DNA of 64,000 nucleotides from IMG/VR virus record IMGVR_UViG_3300015241_000015, positions 1 to 64,000 of that record, one strand, 5' to 3'. Position numbers and translations under genes: made by a program. Positions 1,877-62,759 of this stretch are shown piece by piece. The first letter of the stretch is position 1; each line of letters begins with the position of its first letter. The notes under the pieces are model-generated. The model saw nothing but the letters and a program-made list of their open reading frames with translations. It did no database searches and was not told where the DNA came from. This DNA comes from a virus.

Positions 1877-4800
1877 ATGCCAGAGGTAGCATCGTATACG
1901 CCGGAGGAAGCGCAAGCGAAACTGCTGGCGTTGACCCGTCCAGACGCAGGCATTGCCGCACCACGCGCCCCTACAGCGCCTACTCAGAAGAATACGGTCA
2001 CGCCGCCTCCAGTCACCACCGCAGCGCTACGGCCCCCTGCGCCTCCAGAACCGCCCAAGGCTCCGCCACCTGATCTACCGTCGCCTACCGTTTCCGGCTT
2101 GACCAACGCCAAAGCCAGAGTGGCGGAGATCAACAAGATCGGGGCTGATGCGTATGCGAAGAAATACTCGCTTCCTGGTTCTGTTCAGGAACCGCAATCG
2201 TCGTCGAGCGATCCCCAGGATGTGCGAAGCCGCATTACGGCGGAGGCCCAGCGCCAAGGGCTTGACCCAAACATTGCTCTGGCCATTGCCAAGCAAGAGA
2301 CCGGGTTCAAGCACAAGGTGAACGGGAGAGTGGTTCTTGGTCCTCTCACCCGCAACGGCTACCATGCCCATGGATTGTTTCAGTTGATGCCCTACCGGTT
2401 CCCTAACATCAACATCGACGACGAGGGCGCCAACACGACTGCCGGGATAGGCTTACTTAAGGAACTGAGCAATAAGTACAATGGCAATCTAAACTTGATT
2501 GCCGGGGAGTACTTCGGCGGTCCTGGAGCTATTGGCAAACATGGGGAAATACTGGACTCTTCCCCTCTGACCCAGCAGTACGCTAGGGACGTGCAGGGTA
2601 AGTTTGCCAGCATTCACCAGGACGCTTCAGGCCCACAGCAGCCACAATCCGATCTGGCCAAGGCGAAGGCAAGAGTGATGGAGATCAATCAGATTGGAGC
2701 TTCCGCCTACGCCAAAAAATACTCACTTTCCGAACCAGCAGCGGAACAGTCTGAATCTCAGGAACCGAGTGAACAAGGAGTACCCAATCCGCTTACCTCG
2801 CCACTTCAGTTTTTTGGTTGGCTGGATGAGAAGTGGATGCAGGGAGCGCGCTGGACCAGCAACAAACTATTCCAGAACGACCTGACGGATCGAGCGGCCA
2901 TTGAAGAGCAAAGCAAGAACCCTAACTTGTCGCCAGCGGACCGGGAGTTTTTCGTCTATCAGTTGCATGTTTTCGATGTCAACATGCGAGCCGAAGACGA
3001 TGAAATGAATATGCACTGGGGGTCGAAGACCGAAAGCGAGCGTGAAGCATACAAGTTCAGGCGAGGATGGGATACCAGGAGTTTGGCGGGCAAAGCAGTG
3101 TGGGAGGCTACGGCGGAAGTCTTCAATCCCAGCAATATGGCAATCATGGCGGCTACTGCGGGAGGTAGTGTGATTGCTGAAGCGGTGGGCGCTGTAAGGC
3201 CAGTATTGGGCAGGGCTTTAAAGGTTGGCTTACTGGGGGCCAACACCGCTTTTGCCTTGAAGCTCTCCGCTGGGCAGATCCAGGGCGCGTATGAAGCCTA
3301 CCAGAAGAATGATCTACCGGGCGTAATCGAAAATGCTGGCATGGTGGCCGGCACGCTCTTGGCCGTGGGCGCGGGGGCCTACGAAGGGAAACAGAAGAAT
3401 CGGGCGGCCCGCGAGCAAGCTACCCGCGATAAGACTTTGTTCGTTGCTGAAGTTCTAAAGGCCGTACAGGATCATCCTGGATTGCAGGAAGAACTGAACA
3501 AGCAGGGCGTGCCCATCCCGCAGCTTACCAAGGAGCAGTTACAGGCGGCCATCGACCATATCCACAAAGTCAATGCTGATATCAAAAAGCGGGAGGGGGA
3601 GCGCAACACCAAGCTTAAAAAGATGGCGGATCAGGGAGTCTCGCCCGCTCCCGCCGCTCCATCGGACGAAGACCTTGCGGACCCGCGCAAACGTCTGGCG
3701 GGCACGCCGCCCCCTGAACTGCAACCCGGCCACGTCAAGTCGTTGCTAACGGCTGCCCCAGGTATGACTGAGGAGCAAGTTCGCGAGCAGATTGCTACCC
3801 CTACTCGCCAACGCCAACTCCAGCCCACACCCGAGATTCCGATTGAGTCGCTGAACGACCGTGATAGTCGCCTACTCGATTCGAGCGCCTACGGGCAGTG
3901 GCTGGACCACCACATTGCCAAGGCGGCGGGCGACATGGCGCGCATGTTGAAGTTGGTCGAAATCACAACGCAGCGGCACGAGTATGAACTGGCTTACCAC
4001 TTGACTGAAGAAATCCAGTCCAAGATCAAGACTGACGCGGAGCCAACGGTGGCCAGCAAGGAACAAGCGCTGAAGTTGGAGCGGTATCAGCGTCTTCTGA
4101 AGTGGCACATGTCGGAGCCGTCGGTAGCGCCTATTGAGACCAACTTCGTCAGCATGACTGCGGAAGAACGGGCCGTAAAGCGCCAGGAGTATGCCGAAGA
4201 AGAAGGCCGGGCGATCCTGGTCCGGGAGCGTGAGGCGCGGATTACCGCTCTTGAAGACCAGAAGAAGCGTGTCCAGGATGAGATTGCGGCCTTCCGGGAG
4301 CGAGCGACTAAAGTCCAGGATCAACGGCGGGTCGGACCGGCGCCATCTCCTGAGCAGTTGGAATTCGATGCGGTAGGGCAGGAACTGGAGCGCATTGCCC
4401 ATAGCAACATGCACGTGGACGCGGATGAGATGGAGAGCCAACTACGTCAAGGCAAATCCACGCCATTGAGCGCCGACGAAAAGCACTTCACGGAACTGCA
4501 AAAGAAGCGCAAACAGTTACTGGATCTGCTCGATCCCCAAAAACCACAGAAGCCCCTGTTTGAGCATGTGGCGCTAGAAGCGGAACTGACGGAGCGGGAG
4601 CAGGCATTGCGCGAGATTGAGGCCCGGCTGGCCTATGAGGCCACCCATGCCACGACGCCTGAGGAAGCCATAGAAAAGGGCCAGCGCGCCGAAGAAGCCA
4701 GAAAACTGGCGGCCCAGTTGAAGGCCGACAGGGATAAGACTGAGGCGGAACGCTTAGCTAGCCGGGCAAAACAACAGGAGTTCCCCCGCGGCGAGCCCAT

Positions 4801-22993: not shown

Positions 22994-23407
22994 TCATGCG
23001 CTTTCCTTCTTGAAAATCACAACCATACTGGGGAACGGGGCTGGCTGAATCGATCCATTGAATTTCAATCGGCCGCGAATGAAGCGAACCTCACGGGCTT
23101 GCGGTAGCACCAAATCGTGAAACCAAGGTGATGACGTTCTTGCCGGTATCAGATACACCGCCAGATCGGCTTCCCGGCCACGCTCCAGCCATTCCCTAAT
23201 CCCTGGGCCGTAAGGTGGATTGCAAAACACCCGCCGGCCCGTCCAGGAAACAAACAGCGGCGCCAACCCGTCCTCGATTCCACCCAGCGGGCAAGGATCG
23301 AAATCGAAGTGGAATTCCTCGTTGAGCGACCTATAAAGCCACTCAGGCGTCCTCCACTCCGCCGTGGTCGAACTGAAAATTACCCGGGATGGCATGGCTG
23401 ATTTCAA
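22994..23407 (-). CDS. Phage DNA N6-adenine methyltransferase (Dam-like)
   Basis: EWRTP, FDFDPC, VFCNPPY, LIPART, FIRGRLKF, APFPS. Confidence 0.9.
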   Translation of the reverse strand: MKSAMPSRVIFSSTTAEWRTPEWLYRSLNEEFHFDFDPCPLGGIEDGLAPLFVSWTGRRVFCNPPYGPGIREWLERGREADLAVYLIPARTSSPWFHDLVLPQAREVRFIRGRLKFNGSIQPAPFPSMVVIFKKESA

Positions 23408-23982
23408 GTCGTTTTAACTTCTACGAATCGCGTGACTCGAAAGGTTCCAAACGGGCCACGTTTCTCAGGGCGAAAATCTCCAATGCCCGTACTCACTCCG
23501 CCCTCGGCCAGAAGCTGATGGGCTGTCTCAATCGGAAGCTGATTGTCGTCAATTTGCAGATTGAACTTCGCTGACCACTGGTCGAACCGCGGGCGGTGTC
23601 TCATCACGCGCCCCTTTGTCGCCGGGATCGTGACAGGCCGCGAATCAACCTCGAATCTCTTGGCTGGGCCACCATCTCCGTTCAGAATCGTGACGGTATC
23701 GCTGCATATTCGAACGGCCGCCGGCACGACAAATTTCAGCGTTTTCCGGGATGAGCGCATCTTGTGATTCGCCCCAGCCGCTCCCATCACGTTCGGAATC
23801 GCAAACGCCGAAAAGTAGAAGTGGCCTGCATCATCAATGTATGCAACCCGCCTCGCGGCTTCGAGTGGATCTTCATGTTGCGCCAATTGCGTTCTCGTGG
23901 GCTTTGCCAATTGTGCGCGTTCATCGAACCGTTGAATAAGCAAAGGCGTCAGTCCAGCAATTTCACATTCGATCAGTTTCAT
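23404..23982 (-). CDS. Small RAMP/Cas7-like protein (Vipr-like candidate)
   Basis: First strand I.G.TPLL, RPRFDQWSAKF, C-terminal Gly-loop GIGDFRPEKRGPFGTF; adjacent to the GGC-NN repeat RNA. Confidence 0.65.
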   Translation of the reverse strand: MKLIECEIAGLTPLLIQRFDERAQLAKPTRTQLAQHEDPLEAARRVAYIDDAGHFYFSAFAIPNVMGAAGANHKMRSSRKTLKFVVPAAVRICSDTVTILNGDGGPAKRFEVDSRPVTIPATKGRVMRHRPRFDQWSAKFNLQIDDNQLPIETAHQLLAEGGVSTGIGDFRPEKRGPFGTFRVTRFVEVKTT

Positions 23983-24030
23983 TGGGTGGATCTCCTTTCA
24001 GGTTACGTAAATTTATTTCAGTTCCATGGC

Positions 24031-24060
24031 TTGCCAATTCCTTCCCCTGTTTTGTAAAGT
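24031..24060 (+). promoter_or_regulatory. Sigma70-type promoter for the GGC-NN RNA
   Basis: TTGCCA-18 bp-TAAAGT, ending 10 bp before the first pentamer. Confidence 0.55.
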
Positions 24061-24066
24061 TGTTGA

Positions 24067-24207
24067 CCTTGGCGCTGCGAGGCGCGGCACTGCATGGCAA
24101 GGCAGGGCACGGCCTGGCACGGCGTGGCCTGGCAAGGTCGGGCATGGCTTGGCTCTGCACGGCAAGGCAAGGACAGGCGGGGTGTGTTAAGCCCCGCCTA
24201 TTTATTT
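24067..24207 (+). ncRNA. Pentamer-periodic (GGY-NN)n putative guide RNA
   Basis: 21 in-register pentamers at 24071-24175 (16 GGC, 3 TGC, 1 GGT, 1 GGA, each plus a variable NN), followed by a hairpin. Confidence 0.7.
24175..24207 (+). terminator. Hairpin terminator closing the pentamer RNA
   Basis: AGGCGGGG-9 nt-CCCCGCCT followed by ATTTATTT. Confidence 0.65.
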
Positions 24208-24219
24208 GCGTGCAATGGC

Positions 24220-25653
24220 TCACTTCTCCTCCTTGCTTGGAGGGGTCTTGTCGGATGATTTTTGGTGATGCGGATTTGATGCGGATTCTGCTTTATTTTG
24301 GTCTATTTTGCTGATGGATGTCGTTGAAGCTATTGATTCTATTGAGGTTGATTCCAACTCTGGATCAGCATATCGGGGTTCGAATCCCTGGGGGGCAGCC
24401 AAATCTTTTGAACAACTTACAGACTTTTCATTCGTTTTTGATTCGCCCTCGTCTCCTCCATAGTGCGGTTTTGATGCGGATTGACTCTTCTTCTTTCCCT
24501 CTTCTTTGGTCTCTTTTGGGGCCTCGTCGTCCAGGACTTGCACCCACTCCGCATTTGCGCCGGGGATCAGGTGGCCGTAAATGTCGATCGTGACCGAAAT
24601 ACTCTTATGCCCCATCTGCTTTTGCACATAGGCCGGAGAGACTCCCGCCTGGATCAGCAGGCTGCCGTAAGTGTGGCGAAGGTCATGAAACCGGAAGCGA
24701 CGAATACCGGCTTGCTCTAGCGCTGGATCGAGGTATCGCTTGGCGATATTGTCCGGGAATATCGGTCCACCGGTCTCCGATGGGAACACCAGATCGTCGG
24801 AAATACTGGTCTTGCCATCCATGAAGGCAGGCAGAAGGCGTTCATCTCTCGCCACCACCAGCGCCGTCCGTAATTGTTCTGTCATATCAACGCGACGGGA
24901 CTCGCCGCTCTTGGGAGAACCAAAGGTTTTGGATTTCACGTCATAAGTTCTCTCGACCAGGATGAAGCACTCCGGCCCAACACATTCCCCGAACTGAATA
25001 TGCCCCCACTGCAAGGCGATCAATTCACCCTTGCGAAGCCCAGCCCGTAAAGCGGCCAGGAAAAAAACGGAGTATCCTGGGCATATCTCGCCAACTGCCG
25101 TCAGGAAACGTTGCGCCTCGCTGCGTGTCATCGAATCCCCTTTAGCTTTGCCCTTTTGCTTCTTGTTGAATTTTCCGATCCGTGAAGCGGGATTGGAAGC
25201 AATAATGCCATCTTCGACGGCGGCATTCAGACAGGCGCGCAATGCCCCGTATGTTAGGCGTACCGTGTTGCGCGCAAGCTTGCCATTCGATAAATCGCCA
25301 ACAAAAGACTTCACTTCCTCGCGGGTTATTTTGGTTAAAGCCTGTGCGCCAAACCTGGGGACCACGCGAAGCCTGAGTTGCTCCTCGTAACTGCCCCAGC
25401 TTCTGTGTTTGATTTCCCCTTTGCGCCCACGAAGCCAGGCGGCGGAATACTGCGAAAATGTTTGCTCTTTGCACGCTTCTTCTTTCGTTTCGAGAAAGCC
25501 TAACTGGCCCAAAGCGGCCATACCTTCGGCTCGCTTCCGAATCTGCTCTGCCAGTTTCGCGTCACCAGTCTTCAGCGATTTCGAGGAGCGTTTTCCTTTG
25601 TGGTTAACAAATAACCACCACACGCCTTTCACTTTTTTCAGTTTGACTCCCAC
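24220..25653 (-). CDS. int: Tyrosine recombinase (phage integrase)
   Basis: GLRKGEL, PKSG, FHDLRHTY, MGH...T.DIYGH; arm- and core-binding N-terminus. Confidence 0.95.
   Translation of the reverse strand: MGVKLKKVKGVWWLFVNHKGKRSSKSLKTGDAKLAEQIRKRAEGMAALGQLGFLETKEEACKEQTFSQYSAAWLRGRKGEIKHRSWGSYEEQLRLRVVPRFGAQALTKITREEVKSFVGDLSNGKLARNTVRLTYGALRACLNAAVEDGIIASNPASRIGKFNKKQKGKAKGDSMTRSEAQRFLTAVGEICPGYSVFFLAALRAGLRKGELIALQWGHIQFGECVGPECFILVERTYDVKSKTFGSPKSGESRRVDMTEQLRTALVVARDERLLPAFMDGKTSISDDLVFPSETGGPIFPDNIAKRYLDPALEQAGIRRFRFHDLRHTYGSLLIQAGVSPAYVQKQMGHKSISVTIDIYGHLIPGANAEWVQVLDDEAPKETKEEGKKKSQSASKPHYGGDEGESKTNEKSVSCSKDLAAPQGFEPRYADPELESTSIESIASTTSISKIDQNKAESASNPHHQKSSDKTPPSKEEK
24266..24482. repeat. 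Integrase arm-type site candidates flanking the attP core
   Basis: TGATGCGGATT at 24266, 24277 and 24472, plus variant TAGTGCGGTTT at 24461. Confidence 0.65.
24357..24401 (+). other. attP core: 3' half of tRNA-Gln(CTG), inside the 3' end of int
   Basis: Anticodon loop CT-CTG-GA, stem TCAGC, T arm CGGGG-TTCGAAT-CCCTG, acceptor strand GGGGGCA-G-CCA; 5' half of the tRNA absent. Confidence 0.85.
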
Positions 25654-59098: not shown

Positions 59099-60286
59099 AT
59101 GGCGTGGACTTGTAACGATTGCGGACTAGTACGAGAGAAACCCGAGAAGCGCATCCCCACAGGCTGGAAGAAAATCCCGGCGCATGAAACTCGACTGGAG
59201 GCGCTCTACTGCCACGCCTGCCTCTTGAAGCGCTACTCCCTGCGCGCCATTACCATTCCCGTGGCTTCACCACTGGACTGCGACTGGAAAGAACTGGACG
59301 CCAAGCTGGCATCGATGTGGCAAATGACCACCCAGATGTCCAACTGGATCATGACGCAACTCTACTCCCGCGATACCATGCGCGTGAACTCGACAGACAA
59401 GCTTGCGCCCATGCCGCGCATTTATCTCTACCCAGAACTGCGAGTCAAGTGGCCGCAGATGCCCAGCCAATGCACGGCCAGCCTGGAGCAAAGCGTAAGC
59501 AAAAAATATCGGGCGCTCCGTCGCTTCGTGATTGGAAGCTACAGTAAGAGCCTGCCGTCAATGCGCTACCCGACTCCCTTCCCGATCCCAGCCCAGGGCT
59601 GGTCGGTGTTCATCGACAACCAATGTCCGGTGGTCAGTGTGCGGATTGGGGATAGCCGAATGAAACTGCGATTGCGGGGTGGATTCCGCTATCGCCGGCA
59701 ACTCGGAGCCGTGAAGGAAATGATCTCGGGCGCGGCCATGACCGGGGAGTTGGCCATCTTCCGCAATCGCGATGAGATTCTGGTCAAACTGGTGGCGTGG
59801 TTGCCGCGGCTGGCGCAGAAGAAACGCGATGGCGACCTGATAGTCCGCACCACCAAAGAGTCTCTCCTATGCGCGCTCAACGCCAAAGATGAGGTGTTAT
59901 GGAATTACAACGCCGATCATATCCTCAAATGGCAGAGCGAACACCGCCGCCGACTGCAACGTTGGGCAGAAGACCAAAAATATGAGCAGCGCCCGGTTCC
60001 AACCTTCGCCGCATGGCGCGAGATTATGGTGGAGAGGCAACGCGACCGGATGGACAGCGCTTGTCATCAAATCGCGGCGCAACTGATCGGCTACGCGGCC
60101 CGCCGCAATTTCGCGCAAGTGATCTACGACGATTCAGATACTTCGTTCGCGGCCGAGTTCACATATTTCAAATTGCGGCAATTGATTGAGGAGAAAGCAA
60201 ATTATGAGGGGATAATTTTTATTCACGCAAATCAGGCCACATCTGTTGTAAAATCTGAAACGTTGCCGGACAAGGCAACTGAATAA
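59099..60286 (+). CDS. Nuclease-dead miniature Cas12f/TnpB-like RNA-guided protein
   Basis: N-terminal CxxC...CxxC; RDRMDSACHQIAAQLIGYA...VIYDD (RuvC-II region); FTYFKLRQLIEEKA...GI; RuvC-I position reads LIVRT instead of GxD; ends before Zn finger/RuvC-III; arrays directly downstream. Confidence 0.75.
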   Translation: MAWTCNDCGLVREKPEKRIPTGWKKIPAHETRLEALYCHACLLKRYSLRAITIPVASPLDCDWKELDAKLASMWQMTTQMSNWIMTQLYSRDTMRVNSTDKLAPMPRIYLYPELRVKWPQMPSQCTASLEQSVSKKYRALRRFVIGSYSKSLPSMRYPTPFPIPAQGWSVFIDNQCPVVSVRIGDSRMKLRLRGGFRYRRQLGAVKEMISGAAMTGELAIFRNRDEILVKLVAWLPRLAQKKRDGDLIVRTTKESLLCALNAKDEVLWNYNADHILKWQSEHRRRLQRWAEDQKYEQRPVPTFAAWREIMVERQRDRMDSACHQIAAQLIGYAARRNFAQVIYDDSDTSFAAEFTYFKLRQLIEEKANYEGIIFIHANQATSVVKSETLPDKATE

Positions 60287-60299
60287 AAGAAGAATTTTC

Positions 60300-60417
60300 A
60301 TGCTACCGACAAGCTGAGCTGCGGAACCGTCTGATACGTTTACCGATCAGCCGCGAGCAGAGAAGCCGCTAAGCGCTACGGATATCGTCCCTTGTGGATG
60401 CGGCCCGTAGGGTGACC
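60300..60417 (+). ncRNA. Structured scaffold (tracr/omega-like) RNA, copy 1
   Basis: ~80% identical by hand alignment to 62395-62513, with compensatory pairs; ends in the anti-repeat CCCGTAGGGTGACC. Confidence 0.7.
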
Positions 60418-60453
60418 TTTTGACAACTCAATATGGGCGCTCCGGGGTCCCTA

Positions 60454-61655
60454 GGTCACTGCGGGGGAACTCTTGGGGTGATAATCGTGGTCGCCTCGGT
60501 TCGACTCTGTGCAGTCACTTCGGGGACGACTGGTGCGGTCACTTCGGGGATAACCGCCATCGTCACCTCTGGCATTGCTCTTAAATGAAAATCGCTCACC
60601 TCGGGTGACGCGCTCTAGGGATCGTGGTCACTGCGGGTAAAAACGGATGATGGTCGCCTCGGGCTTGACGATTTCGATCACTTCGGGTTGCTGTTGGGAT
60701 GGTCGCTTCGGGGACGACTGGCGCGGGTCACCTCGGGTCGACTGGCAAGGCGTCACTTCGGGTCTATCAGATTTGGTCGCCTCGGGGCCGTATCTTCGCT
60801 GCTATATTCAAGCGGTTACCTCGGGTATGTGTCTGTGTTCTTGACTGCGCCTACTGGTCCACTTCGGGACGATGCGACCATGGTCATCTCGGGAAATGTG
60901 CCGAGGTCACTTCGGGTTGAGCCTGATGGCCCAAAAGTCACCTCGGGATAATCTGTGTGGCTGTCCTTCAATCCAATGGTCACCTCGGTATGGCGCCTGA
61001 GCAGTTCACCTCGGGCCAGAGTACCACTGCCAACAGTTCTGGTCACCTCGGGCCGGATGCTTTCAATCGATGGTCACCTCGGGACAGGCAAGGTCACTTC
61101 GGGTACACCCTGAACCGTCTTTACCACTGGCAAAAATCTGGTCACCTCGGGACGCGGTCAAGCCATAAGCGGTCACTTCGGGAGGTCACTTCGGGAAAAG
61201 CGACCAATGCAGTCACCTCGGGATATCCTCGGATCTAGCAACGGTCACTTCGGGATGGAGGGAAGTCATTGGCTCATTTGGCCAAAGCACCCGTGAGGTG
61301 ACCTAAATACAAAATGGTTACCTCGGGAGTAGGGATATGGTCTTCTCTCTCAAAGTAGCGGCACCTGAGGTGACCTAAAGACAATTCGGTCACTTCGGGG
61401 CAATGATACATCAAGGTCACTTCGGGAAGAAAATGGCCAGGAAACGCTAGCGCCATTGGGTCACTTCGGGGAGGCGCTCCTTTCAAAAGAAACAAAACTG
61501 GTCACTTCGGGAAGGATTCGTACAAGGCCCGGTCACTTCGGGAACGTTGGCACATGGGTCACTTCGGGAGTATTGCAATTTGGTCACTTCGGGTTATGCC
61601 CATGTCGATATGGGTTGGTCACTTCGGGCTAAGCGCGATTGAAGGTCACTTCGGG
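60454..61655 (+). CRISPR. Compressed CRISPR-like array: 36 half-repeats GGTCACYTCGGG plus 2 full 37-nt repeats
   Basis: Hand count; spacers 1-36 nt, mostly 12-20; full repeats at 61291-61327 and 61363-61399. Confidence 0.8.
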
Positions 61656-61695
61656 ATGAGACTATACCTCTTGACGGCCATGACACAATCAAGTC

Positions 61696-62298
61696 ATGGC
61701 CAAGCCACTCATCAACGATACCCACGGCAATACTTGGCGAGTGTCCGCTGACATTGCCGGAACTCTTCTGGCAACCTTCGTCGCCAGCCAATCCACCATC
61801 CCGCTCTACATGTCCGAACGAAGCGCGCCGGAGACGGTGTACGAAGTAAAGATCCTGCCCAACGGCTTCATTGGAACTTTCTTGGTTCCTAACGCCAAGA
61901 CCCATGGAGCGAGCGAAGTATGGCTGGACACCCCTGATCCGACCATCTTCTACTTCTTGCAAATCAAAGGCGGGATACTGCAAGTGCAAATCAATCAGCC
62001 CTTCGGAACCCCGCTGGTGGCCGGCCAACTCTACCAGAACGATGGAACTACACCGATCGCACTCCAGCCTGGCGGGATTGGAACGCCGGTGACTATGCCG
62101 GTCCAGACTCAAGGCGAAAACCTGGGGCTATGGGTGGCGGGTTGTGGGCACTGGTTCACCAACTGGGATATTTTCTCAGCACAGATCTCGGGGCAGACCT
62201 CGGCTCTGATATGCTGCCCAGTGTGCTATTACATTCAGCGGGTGATTACGCCGTACTCGTTGATCCACACCGACGCCAACATGATTATTTTTGCGTGA
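61696..62298 (+). CDS. Hypothetical protein bracketed by half-repeats
   Basis: 200 aa; C-terminal CGH...CCPVC; half-repeats at 61644-61655 and 62299-62310. Confidence 0.65.
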   Translation: MAKPLINDTHGNTWRVSADIAGTLLATFVASQSTIPLYMSERSAPETVYEVKILPNGFIGTFLVPNAKTHGASEVWLDTPDPTIFYFLQIKGGILQVQINQPFGTPLVAGQLYQNDGTTPIALQPGGIGTPVTMPVQTQGENLGLWVAGCGHWFTNWDIFSAQISGQTSALICCPVCYYIQRVITPYSLIHTDANMIIFA

Positions 62299-62394
62299 AG
62301 TCACTTCGGGCGGTGGTCTTGGGATGCGGCAGAGCAGGCACGAAAAAGCCTGGAGCCGCTCGCGAAGATGTAAGTGAATGAAAATGAACTTTTT

Positions 62395-62513
62395 ATGCTA
62401 CCGACAAGCTGAGCCGCATCACCGTCTGGAACGTTTACCGACCAGCCGCTCGCGGAGAAGCCGACAAGCGTCACGGATATCAGCCACTTACGGCTGCGGC
62501 CCGTGAGGTGACC
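62395..62513 (+). ncRNA. Structured scaffold RNA, copy 2, fused to the first full repeat
   Basis: Paralog of 60300-60417; runs directly into the repeat at 62501-62537. Confidence 0.7.
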
Positions 62514-62683
62514 TAAAGATCAAACGGTTACCTCGGGATCACGGTCTTGGATGTGATCCTCCATCCCGTTATCCGTGAGGTGACCTAAAGACAATTCGGT
62601 CACTTCGGGCAGGACTATCTGCCGGTCGCTTTCAAGCGTGACGGCCCCCTGAGGTGACCTAAAGACAAAATGGTTACCTCGGG
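62501..62683 (+). CRISPR. Mini CRISPR array: 3 repeats of 37 nt and 2 spacers (35 and 37 nt)
   Basis: Repeats CCSTGAGGTGACCTAAAGA-N6-GGTYACYTCGGG at 62501, 62573 and 62647; the repeat forms a hairpin. Confidence 0.85.
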
Positions 62684-62759
62684 TGAAGGAGATGCAAAGG
62701 AAGCCGGACTCTACCGGTAGAGGCTGAAATGCCGATAGAGGCCACAGAGGCAGAACTCC

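What the first reader, a model, noticed from the sequence alone, without database searches (positions are those of the whole stretch)
23404..24207. RAMP/Cas7-like gene beside a stand-alone (GGC-NN)x21 RNA: a second RNA-guided system
Seen: 21 in-phase pentamers with a near-constant GGC and variable NN, bounded by a TTGCCA-18-TAAAGT promoter and a hairpin terminator. The RNA is divergent from a 192-aa gene with a RAMP-type C-terminal Gly loop. From memory, and needing verification, this matches recently reported VIPR-type systems (Cas7-ancestral protein plus GGY/NN RNAs that recognise DNA by a gapped code). Inference: one protein subunit binds each pentamer and presents the NN for pairing.
Basis: partly seen in the sequence, partly recalled or inferred. 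Interest (0 to 1): 0.88.

Follow-up and report, generated by a model that had tools for sequence, protein, structure and literature searches.

The report
Phage VIPR system with inverted guide
An uncultured 82-kb soil phage carries a genuine VIPR system, a small Cas7-like protein plus one guide RNA built from 23 GGY-NN five-base repeats; this kind of system was first described in 2026 preprints, so it is a new member of a known kind, unusual mainly because the guide gene points away from the protein gene.

Summary
At 24071-24185 (+) there are 23 in-phase pentamers, not 21: 19 GGY-NN, 3 TGC-NN and 1 GGA-NN. This is the only such tract in the 81.9-kb phage genome; shuffled genomes reach at most 6 in-phase GGY. 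A promoter-like site lies upstream and a terminator hairpin downstream.

Of 88 related loci, 86 carry GGY-NN tracts beside the gene, with G-G-Y fixed and NN nearly random.

The class is already in print (three 2026 bioRxiv preprints), and this scan has noted it on many other genomes.

Distinctive here:
- The guide is on the opposite strand to vipr (2 of 293 tracts), with its own promoter and terminator.
- There is no conserved accessory gene.
- The module sits beside int/attP.

The target was not found: there is no self-target and no convincing hit in IMG/VR, JGI metagenomes or 405 genomes. The integrase-helix reading of the guide is not statistically supported. Expression could not be tested.

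The parts
23404..23982 (-). vipr gene: 192-aa Vipr (Cas7-like RAMP) protein, P0001
   Evidence: ORF. phmmer to PDB 36pp 'SUSP1 Vipr protein' E=1.6e-6. Family profile E=5e-11 over residues 1-182 against 1-187. AF2 model pLDDT 84.8. Foldseek and VIA-align top hits are all Csm3/Cas7. PHROG 4652 E=5.9e-17, no Pfam family.
23992..23996 (-). Shine-Dalgarno-like AGGAG, 9 nt before the vipr ATG
   Evidence: Read directly from the sequence.
24010..24037 (-). promoter-like site for vipr (TTGGCA-16-TAAATT)
   Evidence: Consensus scan, (9 of 12 matches). Consensus match only.
24031..24060 (+). promoter-like site for the vrRNA (TTGCCA-18-TAAAGT); its -35 overlaps the vipr -35 on the other strand
   Evidence: Consensus scan, (9 of 12 matches). 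Consensus match only.
24071..24185 (+). vrRNA repeat tract: 23 pentamers (19 GGY-NN, 3 TGC-NN, 1 GGA-NN). Units 19-20 are GGCAA GGCAA, a common 3'-end unit in relatives. Units 22-23 form the 5' arm of the terminator stem.
   Evidence: Family comparison.
24175..24207 (+). intrinsic-terminator-like hairpin (9-bp stem, 7 G-C pairs, 7-nt loop) plus T-rich run; presumed 3' end (tail) of the vrRNA
   Evidence: The hairpin also forms in the RNA fold of 24066-24210.

Best explanation
This is a VIPR (Viral Interference Programmable Repeat) module of an uncultured temperate soil phage of about 82 kb. It has one vipr gene and one vrRNA gene, transcribed divergently from back-to-back promoters that share their -35 region. 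By homology with the SUSP1 system, Vipr protomers polymerise along the roughly 140-nt vrRNA, one per pentamer. The thumb (R130) and G-loop (D169-F170-R171) sequester each GGY, and the two following bases are presented for pairing. The filament then reads double-stranded DNA by the one-base-skip code (NNx)n, a footprint of up to about 54-69 bp, and blocks transcription of the bound gene. No nuclease or other conserved accessory gene accompanies it, so repression rather than cleavage is expected. The likely target is a gene of a competing mobile element; this phage itself is not targeted. SHOWN here: the tract, the homology and fold of the protein, the conserved GGY-contact residues, the family-wide linkage of the gene with GGY-NN tracts, and the absence of a self-target. 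INFERRED: transcription of the + strand, ribonucleoprotein assembly, the skip rule in this clade, repression, and the nature of the target.
For: Protein:
- phmmer E=1.6e-6 and family-profile E=5e-11, full length, to PDB 36pp SUSP1 Vipr.
- The alignment puts D169/F170/R171 on SUSP1 D177/W178/R179 and R130 on R138. The cryo-EM preprint shows these residues hold G1, G2 and Y3.
- GIGDFRP is kept in 119 of 122 homologs and M-R-H/Y-R-P in 117.

RNA:
- 23 in-phase pentamers, unique in the genome, far above shuffles.
- Promoter-like and terminator-like sites lie in the right orientation.

Family:
- 1364 metagenomic homologs.
- 86 of 88 related loci have GGY-NN tracts next to the gene.
- Over 191 unique tracts (3330 units) the entropy is 0.38, 0.17 and 1.06 bits at G, G, Y, against 1.94 and 1.98 bits at NN.
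- The commonest deviant triplet in the family is TGC/TGT, the same deviation seen here.

Context and targeting:
- The record is an IMG/VR virus, 92% complete, with integrase, HTH_17, primase-helicase and Dam genes around the module.
- Best self-match of the guide under the skip rule is 26/46 (57%), consistent with the published absence of self-targeting.
Against: - Expression was not tested.
- The guide lies on the strand opposite to vipr, whereas 290 of 293 tracts in relatives are co-oriented with the gene. An inverted, decaying relic cannot be excluded.
- 4 of 23 units are non-canonical. The published GGY>AGY and GGY>GGA substitutions abolished silencing when applied to the guide.
- The residue equivalent to SUSP1 H17, which contacts G1, is Q here; it is H in 109 of 115 homologs.
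- No target reaching the papers' criterion of at least 80% NN match was found.
- There is no recognisable conserved tail structure beyond the terminator hairpin, and no vap gene.
Confidence: 0.9

Rival explanations
1. The tract is an inverted, no longer functional remnant of a vrRNA that once sat co-oriented in the vipr 5' leader, as in relatives. On this view vipr is an orphan or works with guides supplied in trans.
For: 290 of 293 tracts in 88 related loci are on the same strand as vipr, and many run straight into its ribosome-binding site. Four of 23 units are degenerate. No target was found.
Against: 19 of 23 GGY are intact. Shuffled genomes, a proxy for an unconstrained tract, reach at most 6. 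The two strongest promoter-like sites and the only terminator-like site of the 1.2-kb region frame the tract in the GGY-sense orientation. The same TGC/TGT and GGA deviations occur at a low rate throughout the family's tracts.
Confidence: 0.06
2. The protein is a CRISPR Cas7 subunit that serves the phage's CRISPR-like repeat arrays at about 60.3-62.7 kb. On this view the pentamer tract is unrelated.
For: The fold is Cas7/Csm3-like. The same phage carries repeat arrays with a 395-aa gene of no known family.
Against: The arrays lie 36 kb away. Homologs of this protein are flanked by GGY-NN tracts in 86 of 88 related loci, irrespective of any CRISPR array. The best sequence match in the PDB is Vipr, not any Cas7. 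No other cas gene is adjacent.
Confidence: 0.02
3. The vrRNA is not aimed at a rival's gene. Instead it acts as a decoy or competitor guide, or regulates a host gene, as described for solo vrRNAs of satellites.
For: The October 2026 preprint shows solo vrRNAs that redirect Vipr to host REP elements. No phage target was found here.
Against: This guide sits next to its own vipr, so it is not a solo guide. No repeated host element matching it was found in the 405 genomes searched. The host is unknown, so this test is weak.
Confidence: 0.05

Closest known systems
Type II VIPR system of Escherichia phage SUSP1 (Vipr + vap1 + four vrRNAs; PDB 36pp; bioRxiv 10.64898/2026.04.26.720920, .720927 and 10.64898/2026.10.15.759431)
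   Same: Homologous Vipr protein over its full length. The G-loop D-aromatic-R motif and the thumb Arg that hold GGY are conserved. The guide is built of GGY-NN pentamers, the system is phage-borne, and no CRISPR array or cas genes are adjacent.
   Different: - About 27% identity to the Vipr of Felix O1-like coliphages by tblastn.
- One guide instead of four, and 23 units instead of 9-16.
- The guide is on the opposite strand with its own promoter.
- The 3' end is a plain terminator hairpin, not a recognisable counterpart of the conserved SUSP1 pseudoknot tail.
- No vap1 or other conserved neighbour.
- The host phage is a temperate soil phage with an integrase.
- H17 is replaced by Q.
Single-vrRNA VIPR systems and the other VIPR types (I, III-VII) mentioned in the discovery preprint
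   Same: The preprint states that some systems encode only one vrRNA. It names six vap genes for seven types, so a type without vap is implied.
   Different: The type could not be assigned. The type tables and figures are not available as text. No hammerhead ribozymes were found in 16 loci of this clade. Guide orientation relative to vipr is not discussed in the preprints' main text.
Csm3/Cas7 backbone subunits of type III and type VII CRISPR effectors and Cas7-11
   Different: 8-15% identity. No Cas10, Cas5, Cas6 or Cas11 partners. The step is 5 nt rather than 6 nt. The guide has no spacer/repeat organisation. Published Vipr targets are dsDNA read through a gapped code.
Solo (orphan) vrRNAs of F5 satellites and VIPR-null phages (bioRxiv 10.64898/2026.10.15.759431)
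   Same: A stand-alone GGY-NN RNA gene that appears to be transcribed on its own.
   Different: Here the cognate vipr gene is immediately adjacent, and no SUSP1-type 40-nt tail is present.

Membership tests
VIPR system (Vipr + vrRNA) | Vipr protein: sequence homolog of the Vipr family | tested here: met
   PDB 36pp SUSP1 Vipr: phmmer E=1.6e-6; 26-sequence profile E=5e-11, covering 1-182 of the profile and 1-187 of 202 residues.
VIPR system (Vipr + vrRNA) | Residues that hold G1, G2 and Y3 (SUSP1 H17, R138, D177, W178, R179) | tested here: met
   R130, D169, F170 and R171 align to R138, D177, W178 and R179 and are near-invariant in the family. The exception is H17, which is Q17 here.
VIPR system (Vipr + vrRNA) | Adjacent tandem GGY-NN (YNNGG) repeats, at least 4 units | tested here: met
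   23 units at 24071-24185, 89 bp from the vipr start.
VIPR system (Vipr + vrRNA) | GGY conserved and NN hypervariable across related loci | tested here: met
   191 unique tracts: entropy 0.38/0.17/1.06 bits at G, G, Y against 1.94/1.98 bits at NN.
VIPR system (Vipr + vrRNA) | Conserved structured 3' tail after the repeats | tested here: inconclusive
   Only a terminator hairpin follows the tract. Relatives end in biased units (GGTTT, GGCAA, GGTAC), but no shared tail was defined.
VIPR system (Vipr + vrRNA) | Accessory vap gene ('typically' present) | tested here: not met
   The downstream Dam-like gene has homologs in only 2 of 88 related loci, and not adjacent there. No neighbour cluster is shared across the clade. 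The papers call vap typical, not obligatory.
VIPR system (Vipr + vrRNA) | Viral or proviral context, with no adjacent CRISPR array or cas genes | tested here: met
   IMG/VR virus record, 92% complete. Neighbours are int, HTH_17, DUF5131, Dam and primase-helicase.
VIPR system (Vipr + vrRNA) | vrRNA is expressed and bound by Vipr | not testable with these tools
   No RNA run was available to lay reads on.
VIPR system (Vipr + vrRNA) | Natural DNA target obeying the 1-nt skip rule at >= 80% NN match, and no self-target | tested here: inconclusive
   No self-target (best 26/46). No target in IMG/VR, JGI metagenomes or 405 genomes by seed or pattern searches. These searches need exact seeds or at most 3 mismatches.
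CRISPR-Cas class 1 effector (Cas7 as a subunit) | Cas7 encoded with other cas genes and a CRISPR array | tested here: not met
   No cas genes are adjacent. The only repeat arrays of the phage lie 36 kb away.

The most novel reading that the evidence does not exclude
The divergent arrangement may be a functional variant: a self-contained bidirectional cassette in which vipr and its single long guide are co-regulated through overlapping -35 elements. On this reading the guide, taken codon by codon (A-D/E-A-T-I/M-K/N-R/S-T-L-T-V-L-K/N-R-I/M-F/L-S-T), is aimed at the core-binding helix of the tyrosine integrase of rival temperate phages. A phage that keeps this module next to its own int/attP would then block a competitor's integration or excision while sparing its own, divergent integrase.
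Probability: 0.1. Interest if true: 0.55.

Novelty: new member of a known kind. Interest (0 to 1): 0.3.

Why it matters
It adds a well-anchored VIPR example from an uncultured soil-phage clade with more than 1300 metagenomic relatives. That clade is only about 27% identical to the Vipr of cultured Felix O1-like coliphages. The example shows that a vrRNA can be a separate, oppositely oriented gene with its own promoter and terminator, and that a 23-unit guide and the absence of any vap gene occur naturally. The same phage also carries a CRISPR-like locus, so it may run two different RNA-guided systems. None of this changes the picture of VIPR biology. The value is as a catalogue entry and as a compact 0.8-kb cassette for testing a distant Vipr ortholog.

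Tried and rejected
1. Exact-seed target searches under the 1-nt skip rule:
   - IMG/VR: units 3-16, 7-16 and 1-10 gave 0 hits.
   - JGI metagenomes: units 7-16 and 9-18 gave 0 hits.
2. 8-unit seeds in IMG/VR (units 6-13, 11-18, 1-8) gave 13, 10 and 6 loci. All are chance-level once the flanks are scored, at most 28/46. The recurrent hit is the N-terminus of a terminase-like gene of unrelated phages.
3. Pattern search with up to 3 mismatches found nothing in 4 genomes holding vipr relatives, and nothing in 401 genomes of the phylum of one of them. The host is unknown.
4. The integrase-helix reading of the guide (earlier notes e1-6107571 and e1-6107558):
   - Against ORFs of the fetched loci, the top score was 39, against a permutation-null mean of 36.9.
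   - Against 120 homologs of this phage's integrase, the best alignments fall on the core-binding helix. The best score was 36, within the permutation null (mean 31, 95th percentile 39).
   - The reading is therefore suggestive but not significant, and the shared position is expected among homologs.
5. A skip-rule comparison (0-3 nt) across 193 tracts and all fetched loci showed an apparent excess for skip 1. That excess came entirely from loci I had fetched with skip-1 seeds, so the test is void.
6. Expression: no RNA holder listed; only two soil-metagenome DNA runs hold part of the stretch.
7. Hammerhead or other Rfam families between guides in 16 loci: none, apart from one int-alpA hit in L033.
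8. VIPR type assignment: the supplementary tables are not available as text, and cluster look-up gave no accessions.
10. The Dam-like gene as a vap candidate was rejected.

Full report
**What is there.** Window 24071-24185 (+) reads as 23 consecutive pentamers in one phase:

GGCGC TGCGA GGCGC GGCAC TGCAT GGCAA GGCAG GGCAC GGCCT GGCAC GGCGT GGCCT GGCAA GGTCG GGCAT GGCTT GGCTC TGCAC GGCAA GGCAA GGACA GGCGG GGTGT.

- Nineteen units are GGY-NN, three are TGC-NN and one is GGA-NN.
- It is the only such tract on either strand of the whole 81,925-bp record.
- In 100 block-shuffled genomes the longest in-phase run had 3-6 GGY, against 19 here.
- A period of five cannot encode a protein consistently. 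The ORFs that cross the tract change meaning every repeat.
- The consensus scan of 23300-24500 finds exactly two promoter-like sites and one terminator-like site:
  - TTGCCA-18-TAAAGT on the + strand (24031-24060), just upstream of the tract.
  - TTGGCA-16-TAAATT on the - strand (24037-24010), upstream of the protein gene, sharing its -35 base pairs with the first.
  - A 9-bp G+C-rich hairpin at 24175-24199 followed by a T-rich run.
- Units 22-23 form the 5' arm of that hairpin. A transcript from about 24067 to about 24207 would be roughly 140 nt.

**The protein.** ORF 23404-23982 (-) encodes 192 aa (P0001).

- It has no Pfam family and matches one PHROG of unknown function.
- Against PDB sequences, its only significant match is chain 36pp_D, 'SUSP1 Vipr protein' (E=1.6e-6, C-terminal 60 residues).
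- A profile of 26 homologs extends this match to the whole length (E=5e-11; 1-182 against 1-187 of 202).
- The alignment puts D169-F170-R171 on SUSP1 D177-W178-R179, and R130 on R138. The cryo-EM preprint shows that these residues hold G1, G2 and Y3 of every repeat, and two of them were essential for silencing.
- They are nearly invariant in the family: GIGDFRP in 119 of 122 sequences and MR[HY]RP in 117.
- The one departure is the residue equivalent to SUSP1 H17, a G1 contact. It is Q here and H in 109 of 115 homologs.
- An AlphaFold2 model (pLDDT 84.8, pTM 0.78) finds Csm3, type VII Cas7 and Cas7-11 as its top Foldseek matches (E about 1e-6, prob 1.00).

**The family.**

- The protein has 1364 homologs at E <= 1e-3 in the metagenomic protein collection, none named.
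- I fetched 8 loci from genome assemblies (Opitutaceae, Chthoniobacterales, Phycisphaerae and a Woesearchaeota MAG) and 80 from IMG/VR.
- Of these 88 loci, 86 have GGY-NN tracts beside the gene. The two without are cut off at the gene.
- Over 191 unique tracts (3330 units) the base entropy is 0.38, 0.17 and 1.06 bits at G, G and Y, and 1.94 and 1.98 bits at the two N. This is the fixed-scaffold, hypervariable-dinucleotide pattern that defines vrRNAs.
- The commonest deviant triplets in the family are TGC and TGT, then GGA. These are the same deviations as in this tract.
- The median tract is 14 units (interquartile range 11-21), so 23 is long but not exceptional.
- Tracts tend to end in GGTTT, GGCAA or GGTAC. 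Units 19-20 here are GGCAA GGCAA, so the specific part of the guide may be units 1-18. This is an inference.

**What is unusual.**

- In relatives, 290 of 293 tracts lie on the same strand as vipr, upstream or downstream. Upstream tracts often run straight into the ribosome-binding site, as in L011 and L048.
- Here the tract is upstream of vipr but on the other strand, one of only two such cases. It is framed by its own promoter-like and terminator-like sites.
- No accessory gene is conserved. The Dam-like methyltransferase gene that abuts the vipr stop codon (PF05869, E=4.6e-13) has homologs in only two of the 88 related loci, and not adjacent there. No other neighbour cluster spans the clade.
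- The module sits in the lysogeny/early region. On one side are the integrase (24220-25653), an HTH_17 protein and DUF5131. On the other are Dam and a primase-helicase.
- The record is an IMG/VR virus judged 92% complete. Partial copies occur in soil metagenome runs.

**Comparison with what is known.**

- VIPR systems were described in April 2026 (bioRxiv 10.64898/2026.04.26.720920 and .720927). The papers report:
  - a lone ancestral RAMP (Vipr) plus vrRNAs of alternating GGY/NN;
  - one protomer per repeat;
  - dsDNA recognition with every third target base skipped;
  - transcriptional silencing of competing phages and satellites;
  - seven types, including systems with a single vrRNA.
- An October 2026 preprint (10.64898/2026.10.15.759431) shows a SUSP1 guide silencing a satellite's excision recombinase through a wobble-aligned footprint. 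It also describes solo vrRNAs.
- The present locus meets the defining features that could be tested (see the membership table).
- It differs from the SUSP1 exemplar in several respects:
  - sequence distance, about 27% identity to the Vipr of Felix O1-like coliphages;
  - guide number, length and orientation;
  - the tail;
  - lack of vap.
- The VIPR type could not be assigned, because the type tables are not available as text.
- This scan has already recorded VIPR systems on many other genomes.

**Target.**

- Under the one-base-skip rule the guide specifies GCxGAxGCxACxATxAAxAGxACxCTxACxGTxCTxAAxCGxATxTTxTCxACx(AAxAAxCAxGGxGT).
- The phage itself has no match better than 26/46, in line with the published absence of self-targeting.
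- Exact seeds of 10-14 units found nothing in IMG/VR or the JGI metagenome collection.
- Eight-unit seeds gave only chance-level hits.
- A pattern search allowing three mismatches found nothing in 405 genomes.
- Read as codons, the guide spells A-[DE]-A-T-[IM]-[KN]-[RS]-T-L-T-V-L-[KN]-R-[IM]-[FL]-S-T. Earlier notes of this scan likened this to the core-binding helix of tyrosine integrases.
- Against 120 homologs of this phage's own integrase, the best alignments do fall on that helix. The best score (36) is within the permutation null (mean 31, 95th percentile 39), and homologs would share a best position anyway.
- I therefore treat this as an untested lead. It has a published precedent in kind (recombinase targeting) but no statistical support here.

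**Verdict.** This is a new member of a known kind, with a minor architectural variant (a divergent, autonomously framed guide). Expression and target remain open.

Noticed in passing
window 59099-62730: A 395-aa ORF (59099-60286, +) with no Pfam match is followed by dense arrays of the 12-nt unit GGTCACTTCGGG. There are also several 37-44-nt palindromic repeats (CCGTGAGGTGACCTAAAGAC...GGTTACCTCGGG) and a duplicated 110-nt element (60277-60386 and 62372-62481, 80% identity). I confirmed the repeats only.
   Followed up: partly
window 24010-24060: The two promoter-like sites for vipr and the vrRNA are back to back. Their -35 hexamers occupy the same near-palindromic base pairs, TTGCCAA/TTGGCAA at 24031-24037. 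This would couple or make competitive the expression of protein and guide.
   Followed up: no
window 23404-23982, residue 17: The residue equivalent to SUSP1 H17, which hydrogen-bonds G1 of each repeat, is Q here and H in 109 of 115 homologs. This same locus has U instead of G1 in 3 of 23 units, against about 3% in the family. This may be coincidence.
   Followed up: partly
window 22994-23407: A Dam-like N6-adenine methyltransferase gene (PF05869) abuts the vipr stop codon; the ORF's TTG start overlaps the stop, with an in-frame ATG four codons downstream. It is probably co-transcribed, but it is not a conserved partner of vipr in relatives.
   Followed up: yes
window 24220-24482: The 3' end of the integrase ORF contains a perfect direct repeat TGATGCGGATT x2 (24266-24287) and a stretch resembling a tRNA 3' end (GGTTCGAATCCC...CCA, about 24378-24402). 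ARAGORN finds no complete tRNA in the window.
   Followed up: no
L009 3269-3947; L078 whole locus; L087 4636-5530: Relatives show very different array sizes. L009 (70% identical Vipr) has about 136 contiguous units upstream of vipr. L078 (a 112-kb IMG/VR contig) has at least 13 GGT-rich tracts scattered over 8.5 kb. L087 (a 150-kb contig) has 13 short guides, each ending in GGTTC.
   Followed up: no
L011 3922-4000; L048 about 3920-4000: In several relatives the last GG of the upstream tract doubles as the Shine-Dalgarno sequence of vipr (...GGCAGGGAGCTTTT ATG). There the guide and the mRNA leader are one transcript and would need processing.
   Followed up: no
L033 2241-2310 (-): An Rfam int-alpA sRNA match (36.8 bits, gathering threshold 35.8) lies near a vipr locus of a related phage.
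   Followed up: no
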